A stretch of DNA of 64,000 nt from a virus (IMGVR_UViG_3300044878_000136:125232-189231); one strand, 5' to 3'. Positions 1,855 through 58,206 are shown, counted from the stretch's first letter. Notes: generated from the sequence alone by a model not told the origin. Program-made: numbers and translations.

Positions 1855-1893
1855 CATAGAGTCCCTCCGGTTTGGGAGGGACTCTATGCTATA
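1855..1893 (+). terminator. stem-loop with CATAGAG/CTCTATGCT flanks
   Basis: The hairpin is agagtccctcc-ggtttg-ggagggactct, flanked by cataGAG ... CTCtatgct. It lies after the stop of gene 1127..1843. Confidence 0.5.
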
Positions 1894-1953
1894 TGGAACT
1901 GACCCTCATGCGTAATTTATGAGTTAACACCCACCTATCCGAAGGACTAACAG

Positions 1954-4494
1954 ATGTTCGCCGCGCTCAAGCAACGCCTCGGGATTGTCTCCGTGTCGAC
2001 CACCCCGACCTACATTGTAGTGCAGGGCATCGACACGATGAAGTTGTTCAAAGACATCTACGCCGCATGGGGTAGTACCGTCATCCAGAAAAACATGTTT
2101 TCCATTGCCCGAAGCTCTGAGTTGCGCTTGCGTCACTTCTTCGGCTTGGACTTCCTTTATATCCTCGAGACTCTGTACGACGCACCCCAAACGCGTCTAC
2201 CTCGTCGCATCATCGCCAAAGTGATCGAAGAACTCAAGCTGCAAACCTGGTTGGGTCAGATCGATCGTGACACCAAGTCCATCACTGACATGTCGGTCGT
2301 GGACAAGCAGATCCCTTACCCACTCAAGCCGTTCCAAAGCGGCTTCGTGCAACACTACGGGATCATGGTACCGGCATACCGTCTGAAGGGCTACATGCTC
2401 GATGCGGGACCTGGTACGGGCAAGACGCTGACCAACCTGATCCTCGGTGCTGCACTGCACGCTGAGAAGGTGATCATCCTCACGCCGAAGAACGCGGTCA
2501 ACCGGGTGTGGGAAGATTCGATCAAGGATCTGTTGCTGAACAAGAAGTCGTATTGGGTATCCACGTCCGGTGAAATGCCGACCATGGATCAACACTACTA
2601 CATCTGCCACTACGAAGCACTGGAAACCCTCCTGGGCTTTATCAAGATGAATGAGCCTCGTCTCAAGAACATCTTCGTGGCTCTCGACGAATCCCACAAC
2701 TTCAACCGCATCGATGCACAGCGTACGCAGATGTTCATCGAACTCTGCCAGATGAAGTGCGTGGCCTGGTGTAACTGGGCATCGGGTACTCCGATCCTCG
2801 CACTGGGTGTGGAGTGTATTCCATTCCTGCGTTGCATCGACCCGCTGTTCGATGCCGAGTCTGAGGAACGCTTCCGTAAGATCTACGGTCGCGATGCCAA
2901 GCGGGCGAACGACATCCTGCGTAACCGGATTGGTCACTTGAAGTATCACGTTCCTAAACAGGACGTGGTGAACATTGAGGTCACCACCAAGCAGCACATG
3001 GTGAAGATCCCCAATGGTCAGGAGTTTACGCTGAACGCTATCGGCGAACGTATGAAAGCGTTCATTGAAGCACGGCGTAAGTACTACAAGGAGAACTTCG
3101 GCAAGTACCGCACGGACTACAACCGTGCCCTCGAAGACTTCAGGCTCTCACTCAACGGTCCTCAGGAACGTATGGCGTTTGCCAAGTACCAAGAGTGCTT
3201 CAAGACGGTATCCTCTGGCTTCGATGCGAAGCTCATGAAGGAAGAGGCCGCCTACTGCAACAACTACGAGTTGCGGACCATCATCCCGCGTCTCCATCCG
3301 ACTGAGAAGCCTCTGTTCAAGTCGGCTCGTAGCGTGCTGAAGTACGTTGACCTCAAGATCATGGGTGAAGCCTTGGGCGGTATCCTCGGCCGTGAGCGTA
3401 CGCGCTGCCACGTTGAGATGTTGCCTCACATCGACTTCAGTCGTTTCATCGACGATGCCAAGAAGAAGACGTTGATCTTCACCAGCTTCGTTGAAGTGGT
3501 TGAACGCAGTAACGACATCCTCAAGGAAACCGGTTACGATGCAGCACTCGTATACGGTTCGACCAACAAGGACTTGGCTGCGATCGTTCAGAAGTTCTAC
3601 AAACTGCCAGACCTCAACCCTCTGGTGGCGACGTACCAGTCGTTGTCGACCGCTGTTCCACTGACAGCCGCCAACAACATCATGCTGCTGAACCAACCGT
3701 TCCGTTCGGGTATCCGCGAACAGACCGTCGCGCGTGCGGCACGTCTGGGTCAGGACGAACCGGTCAGTGTGTGGGATATCCTGCTCGATACTGGGGATCA
3801 ACCAAACATCTCCACTCGCAGTAACGACATCATGGAATGGTCCCAACAGCAAGTGGCCTCCATCATCGGCGTGCAGAACGTCGACTTGGACAGCTTGGCG
3901 TTGGAAGCACGCGAAGGTGAACTCGATGGGCATGACACGATTACTCAACTGGCCCTCGAGGCCGCAGATGTTGCTTCGTTTGAATCAGGGGCTCCGGTTG
4001 CTAGCGGCCAAAATGCCCTTACCACCGCAACCACCGATCGCCTGCCTGCTTTTCTGTATCACGGCAGCATGTATCAACAAAATGAGTTGATGCCTGGCTT
4101 CAAGCGTTCGGGTCAATTGGTCAAGTGGGATGGGTGTGAGGATAACACCTGGCTGTACTCCACGTCTGACCGTGAAGAAGCGGTTCTGTTGGGCATCTCC
4201 TCCGCCATCGAGAAGACGGCTGGGTTGAAGCGCTACAGTCACGTCGCGGGAAGCAAGGTCATCAACCTTGAGTTCTACGAGAACCCGATCAGCGTGGATC
4301 AGATCTATCGCTTGCCGATCTATCTGTACTCCTTGATGGGTGATAAGCATGACGGTTGGATGCCAAACTACAACGCCAGCAACGGGATGGTCACTGAGTA
4401 CAAAACTCAGCAGACAATCACCGGCGGTGTAGCGCGATGCGAAGCGGTCGATGTGCGTGACTTCCTCCACGGATGGCGGATCAACATCAAGTAA
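1954..4494 (+). CDS. SF2 helicase, SNF2/DEAD-like, with C-terminal extra domain
   Basis: It has Walker A DAGPGTGKT, motif II DESH, motif III SGTP and a helicase-C region ending QTVARAARLGQ. A C-terminal domain of about 160 aa has no recognised motif. Confidence 0.7.
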   Translation: MFAALKQRLGIVSVSTTPTYIVVQGIDTMKLFKDIYAAWGSTVIQKNMFSIARSSELRLRHFFGLDFLYILETLYDAPQTRLPRRIIAKVIEELKLQTWLGQIDRDTKSITDMSVVDKQIPYPLKPFQSGFVQHYGIMVPAYRLKGYMLDAGPGTGKTLTNLILGAALHAEKVIILTPKNAVNRVWEDSIKDLLLNKKSYWVSTSGEMPTMDQHYYICHYEALETLLGFIKMNEPRLKNIFVALDESHNFNRIDAQRTQMFIELCQMKCVAWCNWASGTPILALGVECIPFLRCIDPLFDAESEERFRKIYGRDAKRANDILRNRIGHLKYHVPKQDVVNIEVTTKQHMVKIPNGQEFTLNAIGERMKAFIEARRKYYKENFGKYRTDYNRALEDFRLSLNGPQERMAFAKYQECFKTVSSGFDAKLMKEEAAYCNNYELRTIIPRLHPTEKPLFKSARSVLKYVDLKIMGEALGGILGRERTRCHVEMLPHIDFSRFIDDAKKKTLIFTSFVEVVERSNDILKETGYDAALVYGSTNKDLAAIVQKFYKLPDLNPLVATYQSLSTAVPLTAANNIMLLNQPFRSGIREQTVARAARLGQDEPVSVWDILLDTGDQPNISTRSNDIMEWSQQQVASIIGVQNVDLDSLALEAREGELDGHDTITQLALEAADVASFESGAPVASGQNALTTATTDRLPAFLYHGSMYQQNELMPGFKRSGQLVKWDGCEDNTWLYSTSDREEAVLLGISSAIEKTAGLKRYSHVAGSKVINLEFYENPISVDQIYRLPIYLYSLMGDKHDGWMPNYNASNGMVTEYKTQQTITGGVARCEAVDVRDFLHGWRINIK

Positions 4495-4496
4495 GC

Positions 4497-4547
4497 AAAA
4501 AAAAGAAAGTCTAGATGCAGGAGCGTGAGCTCCTGCATCTATGCTGT
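4497..4547 (-). terminator. intrinsic terminator for leftward transcripts, with conserved CAGCATAG box
   Basis: The minus strand reads CAGCATAGATGCAGGAGC-tcac-GCTCCTGCATCTAG followed by CTTTCTTTTTTTT. It sits between convergent genes. Confidence 0.7.
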
Positions 4548-4837
4548 CAGTCTTTCGACTCTGGATCAATGCCGATACGGCGCAACACTTGATCCGTTGA
4601 CGCGGGTGGTGATGTTCGACTGTATACGACTCCAGCCTTTGTAAGTAGTTCCTGAGCGAGTTCACGCAACTCTTCGTCAGGTCTATCTTTGAGGCTATCG
4701 TCTAACATCTTCTGAATCTCCACCACCCCATGTCCCTTACGGAGCAACGCGGCTATGAGGTGTACCCTCAGCAACTTTACCGCGAACGCCCACGGGATAA
4801 CCAGATCATCTACTTTCTTATCCATCACATTTTCCAC
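4547..4837 (-). CDS. hypothetical protein
   Basis: ORF in a minus-strand array. Composition is typical of the other genes. Confidence 0.5.
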   Translation of the reverse strand: MENVMDKKVDDLVIPWAFAVKLLRVHLIAALLRKGHGVVEIQKMLDDSLKDRPDEELRELAQELLTKAGVVYSRTSPPASTDQVLRRIGIDPESKD

Positions 4838-5142
4838 TTAGCTGGGATTTCGGTGTTCGTGCGTTTGCAGAACTCCACGTAGGCGGCGTAGATGTCATCG
4901 ATCACCGGGATGATGGTCGAGGAGAAGTAACCTTCCTCAAACCACGCGGTGAAGAACTCCACCAGATCGACGTAGCATTCGATACCACCACCCAGTGCTG
5001 GGAGACGCACCATGACATTGTTGATGTCGGTAGTCTCGTCAGTCAACGTTTCCCAGAGGGTCTCGTCGTACGCATTACGGACGGTGAACAGAACGCCTTC
5101 AGTGGCGTGGAAATGTTCTGGGTTGTATTTGTACTTGTGCAT
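4825..5142 (-). CDS. hypothetical protein
   Basis: ORF in a minus-strand array. Confidence 0.5.
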   Translation of the reverse strand: MHKYKYNPEHFHATEGVLFTVRNAYDETLWETLTDETTDINNVMVRLPALGGGIECYVDLVEFFTAWFEEGYFSSTIIPVIDDIYAAYVEFCKRTNTEIPAKWKM

Positions 5143-5201
5143 TGCTGACCTCCACGGTCTTAGTGTATCAATAGATGGGGAGGTTTCCCTCCCCGGTTAA
5201 C

Positions 5202-5801
5202 TCACTGGTTGGCGTACCAGTCGAAGATGAGTTTGGCGTTGCCACCGAGCTCATCCCGAGTCTTTACCAGCGCAGCGTAAGCTGCATCACCGCGCCGACG
5301 GACAGAGCTGTCGTCAGAATAACCGGTATGCCAGTCATTCGACTCGCAAGCTGCCTTGAAAGCTATTTCAGCTTCAGACAACTCCCAGCCCTCCATCCGC
5401 TTCTCAAACGGTTTGTCACCCATCACCTTCGCCCAGGATTCCAGGTCGTTGTTGATGAGCCACTGTTTGAGCGGCAATGGATCCATGACCTGATAGCCAG
5501 ACTTGTTAGTCCAGCTTACCGGCACGCCACGGTGGAATGTGATCCGCATGTAGCGACCACGGATGATGAGCTTGTCGTCACCCTCCAGCTCCACCGACTC
5601 CAACACATTCTTCGGCTTGAAGTCTTTCAGAACTTCAAAGTTGCTCGAAGAGATGTACACCTCGATGTGCTCGCCAGCACCACCCATCGATCGCGCCAAG
5701 GTAGGCTCAGACAGCCCTGCCGCGAACGAGCCACCAATCACAAACATCTCCGGCTTCAGGCCGATAGTGAATTGGACGTAGTTGATAGAAGAATAGTTCA
5801 T
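5202..5801 (-). CDS. hypothetical protein
   Basis: The ATG at 5801 is preceded by the conserved SD CCGAGGAGG. The antisense 256-aa ORF is R/L/H-rich and rejected. Confidence 0.55.
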   Translation of the reverse strand: MNYSSINYVQFTIGLKPEMFVIGGSFAAGLSEPTLARSMGGAGEHIEVYISSSNFEVLKDFKPKNVLESVELEGDDKLIIRGRYMRITFHRGVPVSWTNKSGYQVMDPLPLKQWLINNDLESWAKVMGDKPFEKRMEGWELSEAEIAFKAACESNDWHTGYSDDSSVRRRGDAAYAALVKTRDELGGNAKLIFDWYANQ

Positions 5802-5861
5802 AATGACCTCCTCGGTCTAAGAAAGAACTGGGAGAGGATATCCTCTCCCAGGTGTATCAAA

Positions 5862-6149
5862 TTACAAGTAGTTGAACACTACTGGTTCAACATCCCAAGC
5901 GGTAAGCTCGTCGACAAATTCTTGCTCGACATCTTCCACCCATAGGCGATCCCTGTGCCAGCCTTGAACCCGACCAATCAGCTTATCCTGAGGGTCGTAC
6001 ACCAGGGCTACTGCGCCACTGGGGTCACGAAGTTCGTAGTAATACTTCACTACGCCTTCTTTGATGAACTTCCCATTATGGGGAAGGGGACCTTTCTCAT
6101 CAACGATCTTGACGTTGAAGCGATCGATCTTGTAGGCTGCACTACTCAT
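5862..6149 (-). CDS. hypothetical protein
   Basis: The ATG at 6149 is preceded by GAGTCCGAGGAGGACAGCAAC. Confidence 0.55.
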   Translation of the reverse strand: MSSAAYKIDRFNVKIVDEKGPLPHNGKFIKEGVVKYYYELRDPSGAVALVYDPQDKLIGRVQGWHRDRLWVEDVEQEFVDELTAWDVEPVVFNYL

Positions 6150-6184
6150 GTTGCTGTCCTCCTCGGACTCATGGGGATGGTTCG

Positions 6185-6212
6185 GGTGTATTATGTATGA
6201 CCAGAAAAAAGT
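6185..6212 (-). promoter_or_regulatory. candidate promoter motif, TACAT-core family A
   Basis: The coding strand reads CTGGTCATACATAATACACC about 44 nt upstream of the ATG at 6149. Confidence 0.35.
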
Positions 6213-6218
6213 TAACTG

Positions 6219-6268
6219 AAAAAAGAAAGAGCATATAGCCTAGGCGATGAGCCTAGGCTATATGCGTG
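6219..6268 (-). terminator. intrinsic terminator with GCATATAG/CTATATGC flanks
   Basis: The + strand has gaaaaaagaaag followed by GCATATAGCCTAGGC-gatga-GCCTAGGCTATATGC. The minus strand has a T-run after the hairpin. It follows the stop of 6271..7071. Confidence 0.65.
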
Positions 6269-6270
6269 CG

Positions 6271-7071
6271 TTATTCACGGGGCGTCATTGGCTTAGGACC
6301 CCAGCCGAGTTCACGCGCTAATTCCTTGGATGCTTCGAAAATCATCTTACGACTACCGAACCCTTTAGGACGGAACATGTCTTTCTTGGTTTGCATGTTG
6401 CTCGCGTGTGGGTACCTGAAAGCCAATGCATGGGCCACCGCCCAGACTTCAGCGAGATCATTAAAATCCATCTCGATGGTGTCCAGATGAGGTCTAGCCT
6501 TCGCCATGAATGCTTGGGTATTCATCGCACGCTCACCCTTGAACCAATCCTTCTCACGAGGTAGTGCAAACACCCGCTCAAACGTTGGACGGATATGTGC
6601 GATAACCTTATCTTTCATGGCGCGTTCGGCGGCGTTGGTTTCGTTGTTGATTGCAGCGAGATCCTTACGATCGAAGTTCAGGTTCTCGAAGTAGTCCTTA
6701 CCTTCGTTACGCTTCTGCGCATCTTGGAAGTCGATGTACCCCATGGCTTTCCAGATCATGCGCGCACCAATGTTCAGACGGAGCTTCTTCTCAGAAGCGA
6801 TCCTGATCAGACGACCACCTTCCTGAACTTCCTTATGGGTGACTCGTTGGAGTTTCATGATCTCGGCGATGATGCCGTTGATCTCAGTGGTTGGATCGGG
6901 CAGAGGCTCTACCTCGTACCCATTTATGGATTTGAAAGCTTCCTCGTGATCCTTGAGGGTCTTCGAGGCACGACGAGCGGTGAGTGTGTCTGGCGCCGCT
7001 TGAGGTGGGAGGGTTAGAATCTTTGCCATTACTGTCTTCCTCAGACTAGGTAGGTCGGTGGGTTTCCCCAC
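6271..7071 (-). CDS. hypothetical protein
   Basis: 266-aa ORF in a minus array. Confidence 0.55.
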   Translation of the reverse strand: MGKPTDLPSLRKTVMAKILTLPPQAAPDTLTARRASKTLKDHEEAFKSINGYEVEPLPDPTTEINGIIAEIMKLQRVTHKEVQEGGRLIRIASEKKLRLNIGARMIWKAMGYIDFQDAQKRNEGKDYFENLNFDRKDLAAINNETNAAERAMKDKVIAHIRPTFERVFALPREKDWFKGERAMNTQAFMAKARPHLDTIEMDFNDLAEVWAVAHALAFRYPHASNMQTKKDMFRPKGFGSRKMIFEASKELARELGWGPKPMTPRE

Positions 7072-7087
7072 CGACTGTTTGTATCGT

Positions 7088-8278: not shown

Positions 8279-8280
8279 GG

Positions 8281-12100: not shown

Positions 12101-12120
12101 GATCTTTACAGTAAGGGACA

Positions 12121-12160
12121 TAAAGGCTAGGCGGAATTCCCACCTAGCCGTGTGTTTATG
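12121..12160 (-). terminator. stem-loop plus TTTATGCCG box
   Basis: ggctagg...cctagcc hairpin followed by tgtgtttatgccg. The stop codon of 12156..12575 lies inside the box. Confidence 0.45.
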
Positions 12161-12575
12161 CCGCCTTGGCAGTTACTACTTTATAGCTACTGCGTCCACC
12201 AATACGCACTCCGGCGTAGAAGATGATGCAGCGTACCTTATCCACACCTTCTGCCCGCAAGGCGCGATAGAAGATCTGGTCACATTCTTTTCGAGTGGGA
12301 TAGTAGATCGTCCCATCTGCACGGACAATCCCGTAACCGCGGTAGATCCAGTCATGGATCGTGGCAGCCTTGTCTCCGTATCCCACCAACATGGCGTAGA
12401 ATAGGAGGAGTAGGAACTTCTTCAGTACGTCGATACTGGCGTAGTCGGTAATGAATCCACTCTTCGCCGTGATCACACCGAAGCCCATGATGTCATCGAA
12501 CTTGAAGTCCGCCAACAACTGGTACTGTCTCCGGGCCAGTTCCCGCGTATCCAAATGACTGAAAGCTTTTGACAT
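12156..12575 (-). CDS. hypothetical protein
   Basis: 139-aa ORF. Confidence 0.5.
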   Translation of the reverse strand: MSKAFSHLDTRELARRQYQLLADFKFDDIMGFGVITAKSGFITDYASIDVLKKFLLLLFYAMLVGYGDKAATIHDWIYRGYGIVRADGTIYYPTRKECDQIFYRALRAEGVDKVRCIIFYAGVRIGGRSSYKVVTAKAA

Positions 12576-13152: not shown

Positions 13153-13190
13153 AAAAAAGAAAGGTCGGACTGGAGGGTTGCCCCTCCAGT
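13153..13190 (-). terminator. intrinsic terminator
   Basis: The + strand has aaaaaagaaag then CTGGAGGG-ttgc-CCCTCCAG. The minus strand has the hairpin then a T-run. Confidence 0.6.
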
Positions 13191-13952: not shown

Positions 13953-13953
13953 A

Positions 13954-13992
13954 CAGCATAGACGATGCGGTGGTAAGCCGCATCGTCTATGG
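13954..13992 (-). terminator. stem-loop with CAGCATAG box in the reverse arrangement
   Basis: The + strand reads tttctttcaaCAGCATAGACGATGCGG-tggtaa-GCCGCATCGTCTATGG. It lies just after the stop of 13994..14326. Confidence 0.5.
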
Positions 13993-14371: not shown

Positions 14372-14428
14372 AAAAAAAGAAAGGACCAGACGCCGGGACT
14401 GGCGTCCCGGCTATTGGTTATGCTGCAT
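14372..14428 (-). terminator. intrinsic terminator with TTATGCTG box
   Basis: caaaaaaagaaagg, a hairpin ccggga-ctggcg-tcccgg (or gacgcc/ggcgtc), then tattggTTATGCTGcataa. The stop of 14418..14612 lies inside the box. Confidence 0.6.
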
Positions 14429-14612: not shown

Positions 14613-14629
14613 GGTATTTCTCCTCAGGG

Positions 14630-14670
14630 GGCATAGACCACACCCGACCGAGAAGGCCAGGTGTGGTTAT
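14630..14670 (-). terminator. stem-loop with CATAGAC box
   Basis: GGCATAGACCACACC...GGTGTGGT hairpin. The minus strand reads hairpin-TCTATGCC then the SD and ATG at 14612. Confidence 0.4.
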
Positions 14671-14697
14671 GTAATAGTTAGGTTTGAACATTCGTTG

Positions 14698-14728
14698 TGA
14701 TTGTTCATGCCGACTATGTATGACTGAA
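14698..14728 (-). promoter_or_regulatory. candidate promoter motif, TACAT-core family A
   Basis: ATTGTTCATGCCGACTATGTATGACTGAAGG on the + strand is near-identical to 36693-36720. Confidence 0.4.
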
Positions 14729-14748: not shown

Positions 14749-15243
14749 TCACCAGCTGAAGGATCTTGGCGAGACGAACACTGGGTTGCGTTTACAGGCG
14801 GCTTCAACTGCATGGCGTACTGCCTCGCGTTGTTCTTTGAAGAAGAGGAAGTGCTCATCCACTGGAGTGATGTCGCCACCAGGGGTGAACTTGAAAACTT
14901 CTTTGTGCCACTTCAGATCCGCTGGATGGATCACACCTTCTGGATCACCCAACTTAACAAACGGGATCTTCGGGTCCTTCATGCAACGTTCACGATCGCA
15001 ACCGCGCGAATGAGCGATGTACAGATCGGCGTCTGGACGTGGGCAGGTCTTGGGTTCGCCCGAATCGAAGGTGATCTCATTGACGCCCAGTTGACGCAGG
15101 TAGGTTTCGATGTCCTTGTAATACTGCGCGGCCAACGCGGTGTTCAAGTACTTGGGATTGCCTTTGATGATGACGGCCGAGAGTCGTGCCATAGTGAACC
15201 TCAAAATAAGAAAGTATGTCAGAGGGAACAGCCCCTCTGACAT
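14749..15243 (-). CDS. hypothetical protein
   Basis: 164-aa ORF. Confidence 0.5.
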   Translation of the reverse strand: MSEGLFPLTYFLILRFTMARLSAVIIKGNPKYLNTALAAQYYKDIETYLRQLGVNEITFDSGEPKTCPRPDADLYIAHSRGCDRERCMKDPKIPFVKLGDPEGVIHPADLKWHKEVFKFTPGGDITPVDEHFLFFKEQREAVRHAVEAACKRNPVFVSPRSFSW

Positions 15244-15256
15244 ATAGTAACGAGGA

Positions 15257-18144: not shown

Positions 18145-18188
18145 AAAAAAGAAAGTGTCGAGGAGGGTTGCCCCTCCTCTATGCTACG
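18145..18188 (-). terminator. intrinsic terminator with TATGCTAC box
   Basis: gaaaaaagaaag then GAGGAGGG-ttgc-CCCTCCTC then TATGCTACG. The stop of 18184..18537 lies inside the box. Confidence 0.6.
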
Positions 18189-19586: not shown

Positions 19587-19596
19587 GATACCCTCC

Positions 19597-19641
19597 AAAA
19601 GATAAGAAGCAGATGCGGAGCCTAGCTCCGCATCTATGCCG
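19597..19641 (-). terminator. intrinsic terminator, near-identical copy of 4513-4547
   Basis: aaaagataagaag then CAGATGCGGAGC-ctag-CTCCGCATCTATGCCGTCA. The stop of 19642..20676 lies in the box. Confidence 0.6.
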
Positions 19642-20676
19642 TCAGTTGAGTGTTTCGCCATTGGCGGTGAGTGGGAACATCGGTTGAGGGAAAGAAGTGG
19701 CGTCGTAGCCTTCTTCATCCGGCAACACGTTGTTTCCATCCGGCACCAGGATCTGGATGATGCGGTGGCTGTTGTAAACCGGATCAGGGCAGAAGCCAGC
19801 CTTATGCGCTTCCCAGCCATTGGCTTCGATAGCCTTCAGACGCAGAGGACGACCATCGGACAGTTTGCCGCACTGCTCATTGATCTGCAACGGATCGAAG
19901 TCTTCGTCCTGAGAAGCCAGGGTGATGAAGTTATCAACGAACACTGCCAGCGTACGGCACGACAGACCACGCATGACAGCGAATGCATCCCAGCTGACCT
20001 TCTCGTCACCGTTCTCGCTATAAGCGAAGTCGTGATCGTTTTCAGCCGTTGGGAAGACAGCGCGGACGGTGTAACCTTGTTTCGCCATGGTCGCCTCATC
20101 CATCGCCTTGATTCTTGCGAAGTTGATTGCGCGCACGCAGTCGACAAGGAACTCCTTATCGAGGTTGCCGACATCCTGCGCCATCTTGATGAACTGGCGG
20201 ATTTCGGTGCCTTGTTGCGAGAACGCCAGATTAGACGCGAGGGTCAGGATCTGTGGATCGTTCAGGCCGAGCTCCTTGGCATTAGGTACCAAGGTAGCGA
20301 ATTCTTTCAGGTCTTCGATAGAGACCAGGTTGGTGAACTCTTCGAACGTCAGAGTCAGTTGTTTTGCAGCGTCGTAGCTTTCCCAGAGCTTACCGGCAGC
20401 TGCCAACTCTGCGGCGAGTTCTGGTTTACCTTCGACTTCAGCCGGGTAGCTCTTGGCCAGTTCGCAGTTTGCGAGGAAGTCGCAGAAGTCGAGACCGGAT
20501 TCTTCGGTGTAGCCGTCATCCAGGTTGTACGCGTTGAACGCAGCCCAGAAGTTGAAGTCTGCGAGGGCGGTAAACCCTACGCCAATAAAAGTAAAGACTT
20601 CACCAGTCTTGATGTTACCAATAACCAATTCTTCATGAACGTCAGTGCACATATTTCCCACTCCGGTTTTAGACAA
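19642..20676 (-). CDS. hypothetical protein
   Basis: 344-aa ORF. The long antisense + ORF is rejected. Confidence 0.55.
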   Translation of the reverse strand: MSKTGVGNMCTDVHEELVIGNIKTGEVFTFIGVGFTALADFNFWAAFNAYNLDDGYTEESGLDFCDFLANCELAKSYPAEVEGKPELAAELAAAGKLWESYDAAKQLTLTFEEFTNLVSIEDLKEFATLVPNAKELGLNDPQILTLASNLAFSQQGTEIRQFIKMAQDVGNLDKEFLVDCVRAINFARIKAMDEATMAKQGYTVRAVFPTAENDHDFAYSENGDEKVSWDAFAVMRGLSCRTLAVFVDNFITLASQDEDFDPLQINEQCGKLSDGRPLRLKAIEANGWEAHKAGFCPDPVYNSHRIIQILVPDGNNVLPDEEGYDATSFPQPMFPLTANGETLN

Positions 20677-20689: not shown

Positions 20690-20730
20690 CTATTAATAGA
20701 GGCTGGTGGGTTTTACCCCACCAGCAGTAT
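20690..20730 (-). terminator. stem-loop CTGGTGGG-tttta-CCCCACCAG with ATAGAGG flank
   Basis: It lies between 19642..20676 and 20737..22347, after the stop of the latter on the minus strand. Confidence 0.4.
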
Positions 20731-23294: not shown

Positions 23295-23346
23295 GGGGGC
23301 ATATTCCGTCTACGTTAGACATGTGATGATGACGTTCTGTGAGATT

Positions 23347-31197: not shown

Positions 31198-31240
31198 TTA
31201 AAAGAAAACGGTGGAGCTGGCGCCCGAAGGCGCCAGTCCG
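31198..31240 (-). terminator. intrinsic terminator
   Basis: aaaagaaaacgg then CTGGCGCC-cgaa-GGCGCCAG. On the minus strand the hairpin is followed by a T-run. It lies after the stop of 31244.. gene. Confidence 0.6.
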
Positions 31241-35518: not shown

Positions 35519-35566
35519 CAAAAAAAGAATAGCAGTGAGTGGGTTTCCCCACTCACTGCGTTATGC
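35519..35566 (-). terminator. intrinsic terminator with TTATGCTC box
   Basis: acaaaaaaagaatag then GCAGTGAGTGGG-tttc-CCCACTCACTGC then GTTATGCTCA. The stop of 35567.. gene lies in the box. Confidence 0.65.
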
Positions 35567-35893
35567 TCAGGCTACCAGATGTTCGAAGTGCTTCTGGTAG
35601 AATGGGAGCTCTTCGATCCCATGTACCATGGACAGCCATTCAGCAGCTTCCAACATCAGATCGCTGTGGCTAGCGTCAGCCCACAGTGGTCCGTAGAAAC
35701 TACGAATGCTTTCAAAGCCTTTCTTCTCGACCAGGTTCTTCAGCGACATGTAGCTGAAATCATCTTTCGAGGTACCGCGACGAATGTAGGCTTCTTCAAC
35801 CAAGTCAGCCTTGCGGCAGAGGGTGAAGCTGATCGTCCGCCCGAAAGCGTTGAGGTTGAAGATCAGGCCAGCTGCGTCGTGAATAACTTCCAT
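35567..35893 (-). CDS. hypothetical protein
   Basis: I moved the start to ATG 35893, which has AAGGAGAAAG upstream. The track start would overlap 35905..36096. Confidence 0.45.
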   Translation of the reverse strand: MEVIHDAAGLIFNLNAFGRTISFTLCRKADLVEEAYIRRGTSKDDFSYMSLKNLVEKKGFESIRSFYGPLWADASHSDLMLEAAEWLSMVHGIEELPFYQKHFEHLVA

Positions 35894-36666: not shown

Positions 36667-36692
36667 GGTGGTTCTCCGGTATCAGTGGGATT

Positions 36693-38004: not shown

Positions 38005-38048
38005 ACAAAAAAAGAACATAAGGGCAGGCTTGCGCCTGCCTTTATGCT
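38005..38048. terminator. bidirectional terminator between convergent genes
   Basis: caaaaaaagaacat then AAGGGCAGGC-ttgc-GCCTGCCTTT then ATGCTG. Confidence 0.65.
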
Positions 38049-38053
38049 GTCCA

Positions 38054-38362
38054 TTAACAGAGACTGACGATACCGCCACTACCCTGAGTCATTGACCTCG
38101 CGATATCCACAAACTCCTGGATACGAGGACGTAACCCATCCCCACTCTTCGTCGGGGTATGGTAATGCCGCCTCGTCATCGTACGCATGTACTTTGAACT
38201 TTCTTCAGGCGACATCACTCTCACCGTTGCATTGCGATCCAGTTCGAGACAGAGTTCCTCCAACTCCCAATCGATCTTGGTACATCCATCGTAAAACCCA
38301 GGTTTGGCACGTTCTGCCTGTTGGTGTTTACGCAGCGACTCAACCATGTCACACAGATCCAT
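38054..38362 (-). CDS. hypothetical protein
   Basis: ORF. The start is placed at the internal ATG 38362, which has a purine-rich SD, to avoid overlap with the ligase gene. It could extend to 38401. Confidence 0.4.
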   Translation of the reverse strand: MDLCDMVESLRKHQQAERAKPGFYDGCTKIDWELEELCLELDRNATVRVMSPEESSKYMRTMTRRHYHTPTKSGDGLRPRIQEFVDIARSMTQGSGGIVSLC

Positions 38363-40801: not shown

Positions 40802-40850
40802 TAAATAAAAAAATAAATGGAAGCAGACAGGCATCACCTGCTTCCATTTA
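40802..40850 (-). terminator. intrinsic terminator
   Basis: The minus strand reads AAATGGAAGCAGG...CTGCTTCCATTT followed by ATTTTTTTATTT. It follows the stop of 40868..41260. Confidence 0.65.
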
Positions 40851-41319: not shown

Positions 41320-41362
41320 TCTTTAGGTTGCAGCATAGAGGCAGGGCACTACGCCCTGCCTC
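41320..41362 (-). terminator. stem-loop with CAGCATAGAG box
   Basis: ctttaggttgCAGCATAGAGGCAGGGC-actac-GCCCTGCCTC. The stop of 41366.. gene follows immediately. Confidence 0.5.
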
Positions 41363-43074: not shown

Positions 43075-43110
43075 ATCGGCAGGGGCTTCGGTCCCTGCCT
43101 TTGTGCTGTA
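43075..43110 (+). terminator. stem-loop GGCAGGG-gcttcggt-CCCTGCC followed by TTTGTGCTG
   Basis: It lies immediately after the stop of 41769..43070. Confidence 0.5.
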
Positions 43111-45945: not shown

Positions 45946-46010
45946 TCCGTTCCCACTCCGGGAGTTCATTACTCCCGGTTTCCCTCAACTTCTCGAAAGA
46001 CACTTAATAC

Positions 46011-47174: not shown

Positions 47175-47228
47175 ACAAAAAAAGAAAGGGCATAGAGGCA
47201 GGGGAATGAACCCCTGCCTCTATGCTGT
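47175..47228. terminator. bidirectional terminator, fully palindromic including CATAGAG/CTCTATG
   Basis: caaaaaaagaaagg then GCATAGAGGCAGGGG-aatgaa-CCCCTGCCTCTATGC then TG. Confidence 0.7.
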
Positions 47229-47233
47229 TAACG

Positions 47234-47542
47234 TTACTTGTTCTGAATCAGCAACAGGTTCTTCTGCTTGGCCGTTTCGTTAAACGCCCTAGCCTTGCCT
47301 GTGCCTTTATTACAGAGCGAGTTCTCCAGCAGCTGCCTGACGTATACCTTGGACCACATCGCAGCCCTGACGCCCTCTGGGGCAGCCTCGTAAGCTACCT
47401 TTTCTGGTGGCGGGACGACTACGCAATCCTTCAACCATTCGTCATCCATCGTGACGAAATGAGTTTGGGTTTCGTACTTCGTTTCGGTTCTTGTACAACC
47501 GAACAATGCAAGTACCGTGCAGAGTGCCAGGAAGTACTTCAT
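47234..47542 (-). CDS. outer-membrane lipoprotein, probable o-spanin (Rz1-like)
   Basis: Lipobox LALFGC. Pro-rich VVVPPPEKV. Its start overlaps the stop of the upstream i-spanin-like gene. Confidence 0.5.
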   Translation of the reverse strand: MKYFLALCTVLALFGCTRTETKYETQTHFVTMDDEWLKDCVVVPPPEKVAYEAAPEGVRAAMWSKVYVRQLLENSLCNKGTGKARAFNETAKQKNLLLIQNK

Positions 47543-48682: not shown

Positions 48683-49073
48683 TGTTAAACTCCTAACTAC
48701 TTATCCATTCGTGGAGGTAACGGACATAAGGCTCCGACCCGAAGGTCGGAGCGGTGTTGATTACTCGCGATCGTGTCGGAGTCATCTCCACCCGTAAGAT
48801 AGGCGCCCATATCTTATCAGTGTTTCAGGCTCCAGATGCCTGTGCTACTCCCGTGTCCAGAGGACATGACTAGCCAATCTATTGGCGTCGTCTTTGGGTT
48901 AGCTAAAACACTGGCTATGGGCGAACCAGTTCGACTACCGATAAGGCGGGCGGTCAGTGACCGCATTCCGTCGTACCAGTAGATCCGGGCAAGGAGATGA
49001 AAGATCCAATAGATCATTCGTCACCTCATTTATGTCTGCGTAACAGTTTTGCTATACCATACCACGAAGTATG

Positions 49074-52522: not shown

Positions 52523-52591
52523 CGAAATAGTATCCTAGAATAGTCTTGGCTGTAACACCAAGACTATAATGTAGCATTAGAGATCGGTTGA

Positions 52592-53785: not shown

Positions 53786-54229
53786 ATGCTCGTCGATCCT
53801 AGCAAAACAGCGTTCGAGAACATGCTGGCCCTGCTGAACACGACCAACGGTACCGAGTACACGGCAGAAGACGTGCAGTTCGGCCCACCGGAAGTGTACA
53901 GCAACCCAGCGCATCCCGACCACAACACCAAGGTCGTCCTGACTGGTATCGGCGATTACACCGGCACCATGGACATCTTCTACAAGCGTCTTGACCTCGA
54001 CCTCGAGATCATGTACCGCAACTACCCGATTGGCGATTACGCCGACGTAGCGGCCTTCATGGCGTACGTGGCGACGCACAACGAGGTTCGGGGCGATAAC
54101 GTACGTCTTGAGATCGACTACATCCCTAACGGGACTGTAGACGTTACTACGCGCTTGCTCCCAGTAGCCAACTCCTGGCTCTACATGGGTGAGCGTGAGA
54201 TCGTGTTCAAGGCACCGGTCGCACCGTAA
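53786..54229 (+). CDS. hypothetical protein, paralog of 53285..53770
   Basis: Tandem paralog. Confidence 0.55.
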   Translation: MLVDPSKTAFENMLALLNTTNGTEYTAEDVQFGPPEVYSNPAHPDHNTKVVLTGIGDYTGTMDIFYKRLDLDLEIMYRNYPIGDYADVAAFMAYVATHNEVRGDNVRLEIDYIPNGTVDVTTRLLPVANSWLYMGEREIVFKAPVAP

Positions 54230-54232
54230 CAC

Positions 54233-54280
54233 AAAAAAAAGAAAAGGCTAGATGCAGGCGTGAGCCTGCATCTATGCTGC
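54233..54280. terminator. bidirectional terminator, near-identical copy of 4513-4547
   Basis: acaaaaaaaagaaaagg then CTAGATGCAGGC-gtga-GCCTGCATCTATGCTG. Confidence 0.7.
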
Positions 54281-54282
54281 GA

Positions 54283-54320
54283 ACAGCATAAAGTCAGGGG
54301 ATCCAGCCCCTGACCTAAGC
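54283..54320. terminator. second stem-loop with CAGCATAAAG box
   Basis: CAGCATAAAGTCAGGGG-atccag-CCCCTGACCTAAG lies directly after the first hairpin. Together they read TCTATGCTGcgaaCAGCATAAAG. Confidence 0.45.
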
Positions 54321-54491: not shown

Positions 54492-54842
54492 TCAGTCGTT
54501 AATGGGAACGGTAGTACTCACATGCTCTTCGCACATCGCTGAGACGTCCTCAGCGATTGTGGCAGTAGTCGTGTTGAGACTACCACGATAAAGGTCGTCG
54601 GTGATGTTAAACAACAGGGGTACCGTCGCGCGATACCCCATGTCGGACATCTTTGCATCGTCTCGCAAATAAGTCAGCACTTCAGCCTTGGCTACCCCAG
54701 CATCATGCTTCTTTGCGATACCCTCGGCTTCCTTTGCCAGATTATTGCAATCCGTTTGTTGTACGAGGTATTCGCCGGCTACCGCATGGGCGGTGCTCAA
54801 AGAACCCAGAGCCAACAGCAGTACTGTCGCGAGATGTTTCAT
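54492..54842 (-). CDS. secreted protein
   Basis: Signal peptide MKHLATVLLLALGSLSTAHA. Confidence 0.5.
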   Translation of the reverse strand: MKHLATVLLLALGSLSTAHAVAGEYLVQQTDCNNLAKEAEGIAKKHDAGVAKAEVLTYLRDDAKMSDMGYRATVPLLFNITDDLYRGSLNTTTATIAEDVSAMCEEHVSTTVPIND

Positions 54843-57210: not shown

Positions 57211-57962
57211 GCCCGGATGTGTTTGTCTTGGTGGTTGATTGGGTTGCTGAGGGTTTGGATGTCCCAGAACTGGATATGGCCCTTAGCGAACGGGAACCAG
57301 CGGAGGATGATGTCCTCCAGCTCTTTCATGATCCCCACCAAGTTCCAGAGTTCAAACCCTTGAGCGTGAGCGTGATGAACCGCGAACTCACACTTCTCGC
57401 CGAAGAACGCCACCTGACCTTTCAGGATGATGTCCCAGCGATCCAGATCCATGTCCTGCGGTTCCTTGGGCGGATAGATGCGCAGACTGGCACCCTGATC
57501 CAGCGGAACGTAGGTGTGACCCAACGCATGGATCGTCGCACCCTCGGCATGGCGGCCGTTCATGCAGGCACGGAGTTTCTGCCGCATCATGTTCTGCATC
57601 GTTTGGGCGAGGTATTCTTTATCGTCCGACCACCACGCAGCGCGATTGTCTGGATGGAGTTGAACACCGAGCTCGCTGTACGCTTCGACCATGTCGCGAG
57701 CGATCGTCGCGTAGTTACTCGGGATGAGCGGCTGACGGCGCTGGGTGTTAGGTACCAGGTTGTAGTGGACCTGTTGCACTTCGCCATCGACGATGAAGTG
57801 ATAAGACACAACCGGTAGTTCGCTCAGACTGTTGATCCGGCGAGGCATTACCGGGATAACTTGCAAGGAGCTGGATTTGAACTCAGCTTCTTTGAGGGCT
57901 TGCAGTTTCATGTTGACTTCCTTATTAATGGGGAACGCTTCAGTCGTTCCAATCATCTTCAT
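57207..57962 (-). CDS. hypothetical protein
   Basis: 251-aa ORF with an ATGA overlap with the HD gene. Confidence 0.5.
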   Translation of the reverse strand: MKMIGTTEAFPINKEVNMKLQALKEAEFKSSSLQVIPVMPRRINSLSELPVVSYHFIVDGEVQQVHYNLVPNTQRRQPLIPSNYATIARDMVEAYSELGVQLHPDNRAAWWSDDKEYLAQTMQNMMRQKLRACMNGRHAEGATIHALGHTYVPLDQGASLRIYPPKEPQDMDLDRWDIILKGQVAFFGEKCEFAVHHAHAQGFELWNLVGIMKELEDIILRWFPFAKGHIQFWDIQTLSNPINHQDKHIRA

Positions 57963-58152
57963 CGCAGAGGGAATCTGCTTCTTTCACGCGACATGCTTTA
58001 CACACGTCGTAGATCGGACCACCACTACCCTCTTCGAAATCTCGATGAGGTTTGACGATCAGGTTACTGCCTTTGCACCAGTCGCAAGTCCCGACATTAT
58101 GCAAGTCGAGGTCTTCTTCTTCCGGCGCAACTTCTTCAGGTAAATCGCTCAT
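57940..58152 (-). CDS. small zinc-ribbon protein
   Basis: CDWC...CKAC four-Cys motif. The start is placed at ATG 58152 (MSDLPEE...), which has AGGA upstream. Confidence 0.45.
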   Translation of the reverse strand: MSDLPEEVAPEEEDLDLHNVGTCDWCKGSNLIVKPHRDFEEGSGGPIYDVCKACRVKEADSLCDEDDWND

Positions 58153-58167
58153 TCCTGATACCCTGAT

Positions 58168-58206
58168 GGCATAGAGCCCATTGCTGTATAACAATGGGCT
58201 GTTATG
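58168..58206 (-). terminator. stem-loop with CATAGAG box
   Basis: gGCATAGAGCCCATTG-ctgtataa-CAATGGGCT then GTTATG. The minus strand reads hairpin-CTCTATGCC then 16 nt then the ATG at 58152. Confidence 0.45.

What the first reader, a model, noticed from the sequence alone, without database searches (positions are those of the whole stretch)
1855..58206. Family of at least 20 intergenic GC-rich stem-loops flanked by a conserved CATAGAG / CTCTATGCTG box
Hairpins lie at 1855, 4513, 6231, 12125, 13960, 14395, 14637, 18160, 19612, 20703, 35532, 38020, 41338, 43078, 47191, 54248, 54291 and 58175. Nearly all are flanked on one or both sides by the 8-10-nt box CAGCATAG(AG) or its complement CTCTATGCTG. 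Several are fully palindromic through the box, for example 47191-47224 and 6231-6265. For leftward genes the element reads CAGCATAG-hairpin-CTTTCTTTTTT, an intrinsic terminator. Strikingly often the gene's stop codon lies inside the box, at 4547, 12156, 14418, 18184, 19642 and 35567. In other copies (13957, 41333, 14631, 58169, 35446) the box CTCTATGC sits 11-17 nt upstream of a downstream start codon with no T-run. A hairpin sequence would not be expected to be conserved if these were simple terminators. The conserved box therefore suggests a sequence-specific factor such as an RNase processing site, an antiterminator or late-transcription factor, or a recombination or packaging-related repeat.
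Basis: seen in the sequence. Interest (0 to 1): 0.6.

Follow-up and report, generated by a model that had tools for sequence, protein, structure and literature searches.

The report
Jumbo-phage terminator hairpins with conserved tail
The repeated hairpins are this giant phage's own transcription stop signals, a new example of the sequence-conserved terminator already mapped in phage phiKZ, and the conserved box is the terminator's tail and its mirror image, which also contains the four letters (TATG) where the phage polymerase starts late genes.

Summary
All 18 listed hairpins exist, and about 30 GC-rich intergenic hairpins occur in the window. Sixteen carry TATG at the 3' base of the stem on one or both strands, and five carry TATT/TGTG variants. 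The core TCTATGC is intergenic in 12 of 13 copies.

The window comes from a Noxifer-like, phiKZ-related jumbo phage. The box consensus, read 3' of the hairpin, is T-Y-TATG-Y-Y-G-T. This matches the tail of the published phiKZ terminator motif (…GGGRRGG-BYTTATKYYGT), which RNA 3'-end mapping placed at 61 terminators in phiKZ. CAGCATAG is simply its reverse complement on the 5' side, which makes the module palindromic and bidirectional.

Noxifer, phiKZ and a further jumbo-phage contig show the same architecture. In two close relatives the box is kept while the stems change by compensatory substitutions. Loops are GNRA/UUCG on the sense strand.

A second stereotyped tail, CTTTC-T6-8-G, occurs only on the early-gene strand.

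The box contains the nvRNAP late-promoter tetranucleotide. Whether it is read as a pause/termination signal, a restart site or both is untested.

Verdict: real, a new member of a known kind, of moderate interest.

The parts
1853..1893 (+). Terminator after + gene 1127-1843: hairpin 1855-1888 (CATAGAGTCCCTCC/GGAGGGACTCTATG) with tail CTCTATGCTAT; no T-run
   Evidence: -28.6 kcal/mol, z -6.7; ortholog keeps the 3' box and has a compensatory T-A to C-G change, while the 5' half-box changes
4497..4549 (.). Bidirectional terminator between convergent genes (helicase 1954-4494 on +, ORF 4547-4837 on -): A8GAAAG (= CTTTCT8 on the minus strand), hairpin 4512-4541, box CTATGCTGT 4539-4547, stop codon complement TCA 4547-4549
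   Evidence: fully conserved in two relatives except that the loop is flipped GTGA to TCAC
5166..5194 (-). Hairpin 5177-5194 (GAAA loop on minus) with variant tail ATCTATTG
5817..5851 (-). Hairpin 5828-5851 followed on minus by TTCTTTCTT; no box
6219..6265 (.). Fully palindromic element GCATATAGCCTAGGC/GCCTAGGCTATATGC, followed on minus by TCTTTCTTTTTT and then an early-type promoter at 6190
12115..12162 (-). Hairpin 12125-12149 with minus-strand tail CTTTATGTCC, 5' partner GCATAAA, then early-type promoter GTACATTGT at 12085
   Evidence: about 98% conserved in the relative
13153..13190 (-). Hairpin 13169-13190 (GCAA loop on minus) followed by CCGACCTTTCTTTTTTG; no box
13953..13991 (-). Hairpin 13957-13991 (CATAGACGATGCGG/CCGCATCGTCTATG) with minus-strand tail CTATGCTGT; no T-run; lies 2 nt after the stop of gene 13994-14326
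   Evidence: identical in the relative
14372..14415 (-). Hairpin 14392-14411 followed on minus by GTCTGGTCCTTTCTTTTTTTG; + strand tail CTATTGG (TATT variant)
14628..14678 (.). Long hairpin (CATAACCACACC...GGTGTGGTCTATG) with TATG at both bases; minus-strand tail GTCTATGCC lies 19 nt before the start codon at 14612; an early-type promoter at 14713 lies upstream of it
   Evidence: -26.6 kcal/mol; TATG kept in the relative as TTATGA
15203..15244 (-). Hairpin 15215-15244 followed on minus by CTTTCTTATTTTG
18145..18186 (.). Hairpin 18160-18179 (GCAA loop on minus); minus tail GACACTTTCTTTTTTC; + strand box CTCTATGC 18177-18184 overlapping stop codon complement CTA 18184-18186
   Evidence: compensatory A-T to T-A change with the box kept
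19596..19644 (.). Hairpin 19611-19635; minus tail GCTTCTTATCTTTTGG; + strand box TCTATGCCGT 19633-19642 abutting the stop codon of gene 19642-20652
   Evidence: two compensatory pairs with the box kept
20690..20725 (-). Hairpin 20702-20725 with minus-strand variant tail CTCTATTAAT
   Evidence: several compensatory changes, tail conserved
31200..31236 (-). Hairpin 31217-31236 (UUCG loop on minus) followed by CTCCACCGTTTTCTTTT, then an early-type promoter at 31176
35520..35569 (.). Hairpin 35532-35559 (GAAA loop on minus); minus tail TATTCTTTTTTTG; + strand GTTATGC followed by stop codon complement TCA 35567-35569
38007..38056 (.). Bidirectional terminator at a convergent pair (+ gene ending 38004, - gene ending 38054): extended hairpin CATAAGGGCAGGC/GCCTGCCTTTATG; + tail TTTATGCTGT; minus tail CTTATGTTCTTTTTTTG
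40807..40845 (-). Hairpin 40819-40845 followed on minus by ATTTATTTTTTTATTT; no box
41331..41362 (-). Hairpin 41338-41362 (GAGGCAGGGC/GCCCTGCCTC) with minus tail CTCTATGCTGC, then an early-type promoter at 41302
43078..43108 (+). Terminator after + gene 41769-43070: hairpin with CUUCGG loop and variant tail TTTGTGCTGT
   Evidence: tail and downstream sequence conserved; the same TGTG variant replaces TATG at the ortholog of 54287
45958..45978 (+). Hairpin after RNR large-subunit gene 43459-45945, tail TTTCCCTC; no box
47177..47236 (.). Best example: 15-bp palindrome GCATAGAGGCAGGGG/CCCCTGCCTCTATGC between RNR small-subunit gene (+, ends 47174) and - gene 47234-47542; + tail CTATGCTGT-TAA; minus tail CCTTTCTTTTTTTG
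   Evidence: -32.5 and -35.2 kcal/mol, z -8.6 and -9.1; 100% conserved in the relative while flanking coding ends diverge
48720..48752 (-). Hairpin 48731-48752 (UUCG loop on minus) with tail CTTATGTCCGT, the Noxifer-type tail
54233..54314 (.). Compound element: T-run (minus), hairpin 54249-54274, small palindrome TATGCTG-cgaa-CAGCATA (54273-54290), hairpin 54293-54314; ends + gene 53786-54229 and - gene 54492-54842
   Evidence: -45.8 kcal/mol, three hairpins; compensatory T-A to C-G change in the relative
58166..58207 (.). Hairpin 58175-58200 with TATG at both bases; minus tail CTCTATGCC lies 17 nt before the start codon at 58152
62843..62874 (-). Hairpin 62852-62874 with variant tail TTTATTCCC
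7054..7075 (-). Intergenic GC hairpin with neither box nor T-run (others of this kind: 27549-27571, 52540-52567, 61169-61188)

Best explanation
These are the phage's factor-independent transcription terminators. They are the version, in a Noxifer-like jumbo phage, of the sequence-conserved terminator module known from phiKZ and 201phi2-1.

Structure of the module:
- a GC-rich RNA hairpin, often closed by a GNRA or UUCG tetraloop;
- a conserved palindrome extending the base of the stem, 5'-(TRA)-C-R-GCATAG ... CTATGC-Y-G-(TYA)-3'.

Read on either strand, the transcript ends in hairpin + U-Y-UAUG-Y-Y-G-U, so one element can stop transcription from both directions. This is why it sits between convergent genes, with both stop codons abutting it.

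On the strand that carries the arrays of small, presumably early genes, a second stereotyped tail (CUUUC-U6-8-G) follows or replaces the 3' box.

Shown here: structure, position, strand logic, conservation, compensatory evolution, and identity of the tail with the phiKZ motif.

Inferred: that RNA 3' ends form here (by homology with mapped phiKZ and 201phi2-1 terminators); that the phage's own multisubunit polymerases are the enzymes stopped; and that the UAUG-containing tail is read sequence-specifically rather than acting as a generic U-tract.
For: Source of the window.
- It is a phiKZ-related jumbo phage. Its best database matches are Noxifer and pPa_SNUABM_DT01.
- Noxifer encodes PhuZ and non-virion RNAP subunits.

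Published phiKZ terminator.
- The motif is 5'-BCCYCCCCHWWDGGGRRGGBYTTATKYYGT-3', found at 61 terminators (transcript 3' ends mapped by ONT-cappable-seq; classed as intrinsic by ARNold prediction) (PMC10914365).
- 201phi2-1 has the same motif (n = 59; PMC11512511).

Match of the tail.
- The window consensus is T-Y-TATG-Y-Y-G-T.
- A weight matrix built only from 20 phiKZ tails scores window intergenic hairpin tails above random intergenic positions (Mann-Whitney p = 3e-6) and above genic hairpins (p = 2e-5).

Same architecture, including the 5' mirror half, in other phages.
- Noxifer: ACGGCATAGAG-CCCTCCC...GGGAGGG-CTCTATGCCGT; 40 of 100 intergenic hairpin-strands carry TATG.
- phiKZ: taACAGCATAAG-CCCTCTCCC...; 16 of 40.
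- A 220-kb IMG/VR contig.

Context.
- Over the window, Noxifer and phiKZ, 42 of 70 TATG-tailed hairpin-strands lie within 80 nt downstream of a co-oriented gene end. Only 21 lie within 120 nt upstream of a co-oriented start, and 16 of those also follow a gene end.
- Five of the seven + strand gene ends that are followed by a hairpin have the TATG box, one has the TGTG variant, and none has a T-run.

Selection.
- By my count from the alignments, TATG is kept at 16 of 18 orthologous hairpin sites in relatives about 78% identical.
- Two TATGs not adjacent to a hairpin are lost.
- Stems show at least 7 compensatory pairs (1855, 18160, 19611 twice, 20702, 48731, 54249).
- The 47190 element is 100% identical although the flanking gene ends diverge.

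RNA-level structure.
- Ten of 12 intergenic tetraloops are GNRA/UUCG, 8 of them on the sense (minus) strand.
- In Noxifer and phiKZ, where genes are mostly on the + strand, the bias is towards +.
- Stabilities are -18 to -35 kcal/mol.

T-runs.
- T-runs of at least 6 number 11 on the minus strand and 0 on the plus strand.
- Ten of them directly follow hairpins, as CTTTC-T6-8-G.
Against: - There are no transcript-end data for this phage or for any Noxifer-clade phage.
- The full 30-nt phiKZ motif has no match in the window even with 3 mismatches. The stems here are diverse, so only the tail and its mirror are shared.
- On the + strand the hairpin is followed by CUAUGCUGU, which has 4-5 U and never more than one U in a row. 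When the box pairs with its 5' mirror, nothing U-rich follows. A bacterial RNAP would not be expected to terminate there.
- Twenty-three of 70 box-bearing hairpin-strands face antisense, with no co-oriented gene on either side. Two of these in the window (18180, 19635) are nonetheless conserved, which the simple 'end of a gene' reading does not explain.
- At 14637 a box-only hairpin lies downstream of an early-type promoter (14713), inside a 5' leader. It therefore cannot stop that polymerase efficiently.
Confidence: 0.78

Rival explanations
1. The box is a promoter. TATG is the start-site consensus of the phiKZ-type non-virion RNA polymerase (the G is +1). Hairpin-TATG units would then be terminator-promoter composites that restart middle or late transcription for the next gene, or, where they face backwards, launch antisense RNA across early genes.
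For: [quoted passage not shown]
- On the minus strand, box-only hairpins are followed by a ribosome site and start codon 12-25 nt after the G at 14632, 58170, 35443 and 13957.
- Hairpin-free TATGs lie 28-56 nt upstream of the first gene of each + strand operon in divergent regions (36738, 41737, 43413, 53231).
- TATG occurs 13 times in 22 Noxifer divergent upstream segments.
Against: - Only 21 of 70 box-bearing hairpin-strands have a co-oriented start within 120 nt, and only 5 have a start without also following a gene end.
- At convergent pairs (4540, 38043, 47221, 54273) the box points into the 3' end of the opposing gene, yet it is conserved.
- The model late promoter P119L has no upstream hairpin.
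- Tails extend as TATG-Y-Y-G-T, whereas the hairpin-free promoter candidates are mostly TATGA/G/T with no such extension.
- At 41338 and 12125 the downstream gene already has an early-type promoter about 25 nt after the box.
Confidence: 0.25
2. The elements are RNA processing or stability signals rather than termination sites. The box would be a cleavage site for an RNase, and the hairpin would protect the resulting 3' or 5' end.
For: - Stable GNRA/UUCG-capped hairpins are good 3'-exonuclease blocks.
- The box-only hairpin at 14637 sits in a 5' leader.
- 3'-end mapping in phiKZ cannot by itself separate termination from processing (PMC10914365).
Against: - The box is usually base-paired with its mirror, which is a poor substrate for single-strand-specific RNases.
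- The strict palindromy and two-strand use fit a DNA-templated, direction-independent signal better.
- The T-run copies are textbook intrinsic terminators.
Confidence: 0.1
3. The elements are a mobile or recombination-prone repeat (REP/MITE-like), or a DNA-level site for packaging, replication or recombination, that happens to lodge between genes.
For: - Structure: a conserved short flank next to a GC-rich palindrome recalls REP elements.
- Stems fall into sub-families (GGCAGGG four times, TAGATGCRGG three times, GCCTAGGC three times, CCCTCC four times).
- A loop is inverted between relatives at 4512.
Against: - Copies sit at orthologous positions in genomes about 78% identical and evolve in place by compensatory changes.
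- The stem sequence is not conserved between copies.
- Placement is tied to stop codons and T-runs.
- Loops are RNA-type tetraloops on the transcribed strand.
- No transposase or RAYT-like gene was seen among the large proteins scanned (only 10 proteins were scanned).
Confidence: 0.04

Closest known systems
phiKZ conserved intrinsic terminator motif (Putzeys et al. 2024, PMC10914365) and 201phi2-1 terminator motif A (PMC11512511)
   Same: - A GC-rich stem-loop at gene ends followed by YTTATKYYGT; the window has TYTATGYYGT.
- A 5' mirror (A)ACRRCATAR that often starts with the stop codon. I found this in phiKZ itself, although the published motif starts at the stem.
- Frequent use between convergent genes.
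- The host phage belongs to the phiKZ-like group that has its own multisubunit RNAPs.
   Different: - phiKZ, 201phi2-1 and Noxifer stems are nearly uniform (CCYCCCC/GGGRRGG). Here the stems are diverse and only the outer box is shared (0 matches to the 30-mer).
- In phiKZ and Noxifer the T-run follows the box on the same strand. Here the stereotyped CTTTC-T6-8-G tail often replaces the 3' box and is confined to one strand.
- The genome is 53% GC, so the tail is no longer U-rich apart from the conserved positions.
Canonical bacterial intrinsic (Rho-independent) terminator, including bidirectional ones
   Same: - A GC hairpin followed by a U-tract in 11-14 minus-strand copies.
- An A-tract on the opposite side.
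- Use between convergent genes.
   Different: - The second direction uses a specific non-U-rich sequence (CUAUGCUGU) instead of a U-tract.
- Both tails are sequence-stereotyped.
- The enzymes involved are probably phage-encoded, sigma-independent multisubunit RNAPs.
phiKZ nvRNAP late promoter (5'-TATG-3', G = +1; Yakunina et al. 2015, PMC4666361; PMC12809450)
   Same: The identical tetranucleotide, usually preceded by T/C-rich positions. In a subset it lies at a sensible distance upstream of a start codon.
   Different: - Late promoters need no hairpin (P119L has none).
- Most box copies are not upstream of a co-oriented gene.
- The box has the extra conserved positions Y-Y-G-T.
REP elements / REPINs of bacterial chromosomes
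   Same: Intergenic GC-rich palindromes with a short conserved flank, often found after genes.
   Different: - REP copies share the whole palindrome sequence and are mobilised by RAYT transposases.
- Here the stems differ, the positions are orthologous, and no such gene was seen.

Membership tests
phiKZ-type conserved terminator (hairpin + TTAT-region motif) | GC-rich stem-loop placed in intergenic DNA directly after a gene end | tested here: met
   About 30 intergenic hairpins. Every TATG-tailed hairpin-strand found is intergenic: 14 of 58 intergenic against 0 of 34 genic. Of the 14 window strands, 7 lie within 80 nt after a co-oriented stop.
phiKZ-type conserved terminator (hairpin + TTAT-region motif) | Tail BYTTATKYYGT immediately 3' of the stem | tested here: met
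   Consensus T-Y-TATG-Y-Y-G-T from 23 instances. A phiKZ-derived matrix separates window hairpin tails from controls (p = 3e-6 and 2e-5). YTATKYYGT has 9 exact hits, 7 of them next to a hairpin.
phiKZ-type conserved terminator (hairpin + TTAT-region motif) | Stem of sequence CCYCCCC ... GGGRRGG | tested here: not met
   The full 30-mer has 0 matches with up to 3 mismatches. Only 4 of about 30 stems are of the CCCTCC type (1855, 5177, 13169, 18160). Noxifer does meet this feature.
phiKZ-type conserved terminator (hairpin + TTAT-region motif) | Transcript 3' ends map at the motif in infected cells | not testable with these tools
   No RNA data exist for this phage. The feature is shown for phiKZ and 201phi2-1 only (PMC10914365, PMC11512511).
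phiKZ-type conserved terminator (hairpin + TTAT-region motif) | Host phage is phiKZ-like, with its own vRNAP and nvRNAP | tested here: inconclusive
   No RNAP gene lies in the window (one search covered 10 proteins). The nearest named relative, Noxifer, has PhuZ and nvRNAP subunits. The window shares RNR, ligase and helicase genes with Noxifer at about 75% nucleotide identity.
Canonical intrinsic terminator | Stable GC hairpin followed at once by a U-tract | tested here: met
   Met for 10-14 minus-strand copies. Not met for any + strand copy.
nvRNAP late promoter (TATG) | TATG on the non-template strand | tested here: met
   Present by definition in 23 strand-instances.
nvRNAP late promoter (TATG) | Located upstream of a co-oriented gene, which it serves | tested here: not met
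   Holds for only 21 of 70 box-bearing hairpin-strands across the window, Noxifer and phiKZ. Twenty-six are terminator-context only and 23 are neither. It may hold for a subset (14632, 58170, 35443, 13957).
nvRNAP late promoter (TATG) | Primary 5' ends start at the G | not testable with these tools
   Needs TSS mapping.
REP / MITE-like repeat | Whole palindrome sequence shared among copies; copies mobile | tested here: not met
   Stems differ. Copies are orthologous and evolve in place.

The most novel reading that the evidence does not exclude
The TATG in the terminator tail may be read by the same pocket of the non-virion polymerase (the beta-like subunit, gp123 in phiKZ) that reads TATG in the non-template strand at late promoters.

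On this reading one 4-nt signal acts in two ways. Just after a hairpin it pauses the elongating enzyme and triggers termination without a U-tract. On a free enzyme it marks the restart point.

This would explain three things:
- why terminators of phiKZ-like phages are sequence-conserved from 37% to 53% GC genomes;
- why the module is palindromic, so that it insulates against pervasive initiation from a 4-bp promoter on either strand;
- part of the unexplained context-dependence of late promoters.

A corollary is that the one-strand CTTTC-T6-8-G tail is the stop signal for the virion polymerase on early operons, so each polymerase would have its own terminator tail.
Probability: 0.15. Interest if true: 0.75.

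Novelty: new member of a known kind. Interest (0 to 1): 0.35.

Why it matters
- Annotation. Recognising these modules gives operon boundaries in Noxifer-like jumbo phages, a clade whose genome papers read here describe no transcription signals.
- Biology. The window adds a useful contrast to phiKZ. In a GC-richer genome the stems have diversified and the tail has lost general U-richness, yet T-Y-TATG-Y-Y-G-T and its mirror persist and are kept in orthologs. This argues that the phiKZ 'TTAT region' is a specific recognition element and not just a weak U-tract.
- Testable link. The conserved core equals the nvRNAP start-site consensus. Purified phiKZ nvRNAP already exists, so a link between termination and initiation in these non-canonical polymerases can be tested directly.

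Tried and rejected
CATAGAG is not significant and CAGCATAG has only 6 copies. I replaced them with a hairpin-anchored analysis.
- The full phiKZ 30-nt motif in the window gave no hit.
- Rfam (0 families) and tRNA/tmRNA (0) gave nothing.
- A covariance model from phiKZ terminators was abandoned. MAFFT gave an ungapped alignment with stems out of register, so I used a tail weight matrix instead.
- A scan of viral contigs for CAGCATAG-N12-40-CTATGCTG returned mostly chance hits. Only 9 of the 119 returned loci hold a real hairpin, and one is a clear jumbo-phage relative.
- Supplementary TSS/TTS tables of the phiKZ and 201phi2-1 papers are not held, and Ceyssens 2014 is not held. I therefore could not check whether mapped late TSSs coincide with terminator tails.
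- A REP/MITE reading and a DNA-level site reading were considered and rejected because the copies are orthologous, evolve by compensatory changes, and carry sense-strand RNA tetraloops.

Full report
WHAT THE WINDOW IS

The window has 53% GC. It holds about 106 genes, 97 of them on the minus strand, mostly short and closely packed. The large proteins are a helicase, ribonucleotide reductase large and small subunits, an NAD-dependent ligase, thymidylate synthase and a glutathionylspermidine synthase.

The only named relatives are the Pseudomonas jumbo phages Noxifer and pPa_SNUABM_DT01, at about 75% identity over a few genes. Noxifer encodes PhuZ and non-virion RNA polymerase subunits, so it is a phiKZ-like phage.

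Closer relatives exist as uncultivated contigs:
- IMGVR_UViG_3300049460_000121 (267 kb), syntenic and 70-79% identical in DNA;
- IMGVR_UViG_3300046542_000271.

CHECKING THE OBSERVATION

All 18 listed hairpins are present. They are very stable: -18 to -35 kcal/mol, z -3 to -9. About a dozen further intergenic hairpins exist.

CATAGAG occurs 10 times against 6 expected, and CAGCATAG 6 times against 1.6. The core is nevertheless strongly non-random:
- TCTATGC/GCATAGA is intergenic in 12 of 13 copies, with 9.7% of the window intergenic (p about 8e-12).
- TATG lies at the 3' base of 14 of 58 intergenic hairpin-strands, against 0 of 34 genic ones and 1.4% of random 13-nt windows.
- With imperfect stems allowed, 16 hairpins carry it on one or both strands, 23 instances in all. 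Five more carry TATT or TGTG variants.

Every copy reads 'hairpin, then T-Y-TATG-Y-Y-G-T'. The 5' CAGCATAG is the reverse complement, so the unit is a palindrome whose outer arms are the box.

WHAT IT CORRESPONDS TO

ONT-cappable-seq of phiKZ found that most of its intrinsic terminators share one motif, 5'-BCCYCCCCHWWDGGGRRGGBYTTATKYYGT-3'. This is a stem-loop followed by a 'TTAT region', present at 61 sites (PMC10914365). 201phi2-1 has the same motif at 59 sites, and a second motif lengthens the stem (PMC11512511).

The window box equals the phiKZ tail at nine of ten positions. Copies such as TTTATGCTGT (38043, 54287) match it completely.

I checked this directly:
- phiKZ DNA shows gCATAA-GCCCTCCC...GGGAGGGC-ATTATGTYT and taACAGCATAAG-CCCTCTCCC.... 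The 5' mirror, often beginning with the stop codon, is therefore there too, although the published motif starts at the stem.
- Noxifer shows ACGGCATAGAG-CCCTCCC...GGGAGGG-CTCTATGCCGT(TTTTCT).
- TATG tails occur on 40 of 100 Noxifer and 16 of 40 phiKZ intergenic hairpin-strands.
- A weight matrix made only from 20 phiKZ tails separates window hairpin tails from random intergenic positions (p = 3e-6) and from genic hairpins (p = 2e-5).
- A further 220-kb contig has the same box with varied stems.

What is not shared is the stem. The 30-mer has no match in the window, and only four stems are of the CCCTCC type.

CONTEXT

On the + strand, seven gene ends are followed by a hairpin. Five have the TATG box, one has TTTGTGCTGT, and none has a T-run.

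T-runs of six or more occur 11 times, all on the minus strand. Ten of them come right after hairpins, as a stereotyped CTTTC-T6-8-G.

At four convergent gene pairs (4512, 38023, 47190, 54249) one hairpin serves both genes, with a T-run tail leftward and a box tail rightward.

Across the window, Noxifer and phiKZ, the 70 TATG-tailed hairpin-strands divide as follows:
- 26 lie just after a co-oriented gene end only;
- 16 lie after a gene end and before a co-oriented start;
- 5 lie before a start only;
- 23 lie in neither context; these are the backward-facing halves of palindromic elements in co-directional arrays.

The stop codon abuts the box in a fixed register (TRA-C-R-GCATAG) at 4547, 19642 and 47234, and lies close to it at 18184 and 35567. 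The same holds in Noxifer and phiKZ. The complement of the stop codon forms the last positions of the opposite strand's tail (…GT-YA).

EVOLUTION

In the relatives, hairpin-adjacent TATG is kept at 16 of 18 orthologous sites (my tally from the alignments). The two exceptions are the backward-facing half at 1855 and a change to the TGTG variant at 54287. Two TATGs that are merely near hairpins (12157, 14419) are lost through synonymous changes.

Stems carry compensatory changes at 1855, 18160, 19611 (two), 20702 (several), 48731 and 54249. The 47190 element is identical while both flanking gene ends diverge. The 4512 loop is inverted.

Loops point to RNA. Ten of 12 intergenic tetraloops are GNRA or UUCG, eight of them on the sense (minus) strand. 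In Noxifer and phiKZ the bias follows their + strand genes.

HOW IT PROBABLY WORKS

The best-supported reading is hairpin-dependent termination of the phage's own polymerases, in both directions. The box plays two roles: it extends the stem, and it forms the RNA and DNA immediately downstream of the core hairpin.

Termination itself is inferred from the mapped phiKZ and 201phi2-1 sites, not shown here.

Three findings suggest the box is read specifically:
- it persists in a 53% GC genome where the tail is otherwise not U-rich;
- it persists while stems diversify;
- its core is TATG, the start-site consensus. [quoted passage not shown]

A promoter role alone does not fit, for four reasons:
- most copies have no gene to serve;
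- convergent copies point into the opposing gene yet are conserved;
- the model promoter P119L has no hairpin;
- two 'promoter-like' copies (41338, 12125) are followed within about 25 nt by a separate early-type promoter.

A subset may still double as restart sites. At 14632, 58170, 35443 and 13957 the G lies 12-25 nt before a start codon. Hairpin-free TATGs also precede each + strand operon and many Noxifer late genes.

Two points remain open:
- the backward-facing half-boxes at 18160 and 19611 are conserved;
- the box-only hairpin at 14637 lies downstream of an early-type promoter, which implies read-through by that enzyme and hints that the two tails may be polymerase-specific.

COMPARISON AND VERDICT

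This is a member of the phiKZ-type conserved terminator kind. It meets the position and tail criteria, fails the uniform-stem criterion, and lacks transcript data. It is not a REP-like repeat and there is no sign of an RNase or packaging role.

The kind is known. The clade, the diversified stems, the explicit palindromic half-box with an embedded stop codon, and the one-strand T-run tail are additions.

Interest is moderate. The notable lead is the identity between the terminator-tail core and the late-promoter core.

Noticed in passing
window 60354, 53288, 41302, 36703, 31176, 14713, 12085, 6190 (minus strand); near-variants around 52560 and 35480: Candidate early (virion-RNAP) promoter RTACATWRT, e.g. 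GGTGATACATTATTGAAG. It is preceded by TTAAA about 15-20 nt upstream. All 8 exact copies are on the minus strand, all are intergenic, and all lie 30-100 nt upstream of a minus-strand start. Those examined are fully conserved in the relative. This fits the review statement that each RNAP-encoding jumbo phage has its own AT-rich motif of about 10 nt upstream of early operons (PMC7598289).
   Followed up: partly
window 14690-14722 and 36680-36712 (minus strand): A 30-nt repeat, TTCAGTCATACATAGTCrGCATGAACAATC, containing the promoter-like motif and followed at once by a mini-ORF starting MNN. At 14700 the ORF has 13 codons and ends in the TAA of ACATAAC at the base of hairpin 14637. At 36690 it has 11 codons and overlaps the start of gene 36373-36666. 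It could be a leader peptide or attenuator arrangement, or a coincidence.
   Followed up: no
window minus strand: 4497, 6219, 13153, 14372, 18145, 35520, 38007, 47177, 54233: The T-run tail is itself stereotyped (CTTTC-T6-8-G-T; on the + strand, ACAAAAAAAGAAAG). Runs of at least 6 T occur 11 times on the minus strand and never on the plus strand.
   Followed up: partly
window 4525-4528 against L006 and L007: The tetraloop of the 4512 hairpin is inverted (GTGA here, TCAC in both relatives) while the stem is unchanged. This flips which strand carries a GNRA loop.
   Followed up: no
window 38023, 41338, 43078, 47190; 4512, 19611, 54249; 6231, 12125, 62852; 1855, 5177, 13169, 18160: Stems fall into four sequence sub-families (GGCAGGG; TAGATGCRGG; GCCTAGGC/GGCTAGG; CCCTCC). 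This suggests occasional copying or gene conversion between terminators, or a limited set of favoured stems.
   Followed up: no
window 54273-54290: Between the two hairpins of the 54249/54293 compound element, the two facing boxes form a third small palindrome, TATGCTG-cgaa-CAGCATA. The RNA is predicted to fold as three adjacent hairpins (-45.8 kcal/mol).
   Followed up: partly
window 23292-23303 (minus strand): TATGCCCCCATG: a hairpin-free TATG only 5 nt before the start codon of gene 22605-23294, with no ribosome-binding site. It could be a near-leaderless transcript if TATG is a start site here.
   Followed up: no
window 61203-62822 (minus strand): A 539-aa protein whose C-terminal part (residues 263-539) matches thymidylate synthase. 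The N-terminal 260 residues had no family match in PHROGs.
   Followed up: no
L086 (IMGVR_UViG_3300035696_000004, 219,772 bp) 158-9238: Another jumbo-phage contig (48.7% GC) with the same CATAGAG/CTCTATGCTG box around varied GC stems. This shows the diversified-stem form is not unique to this window's lineage.
   Followed up: partly
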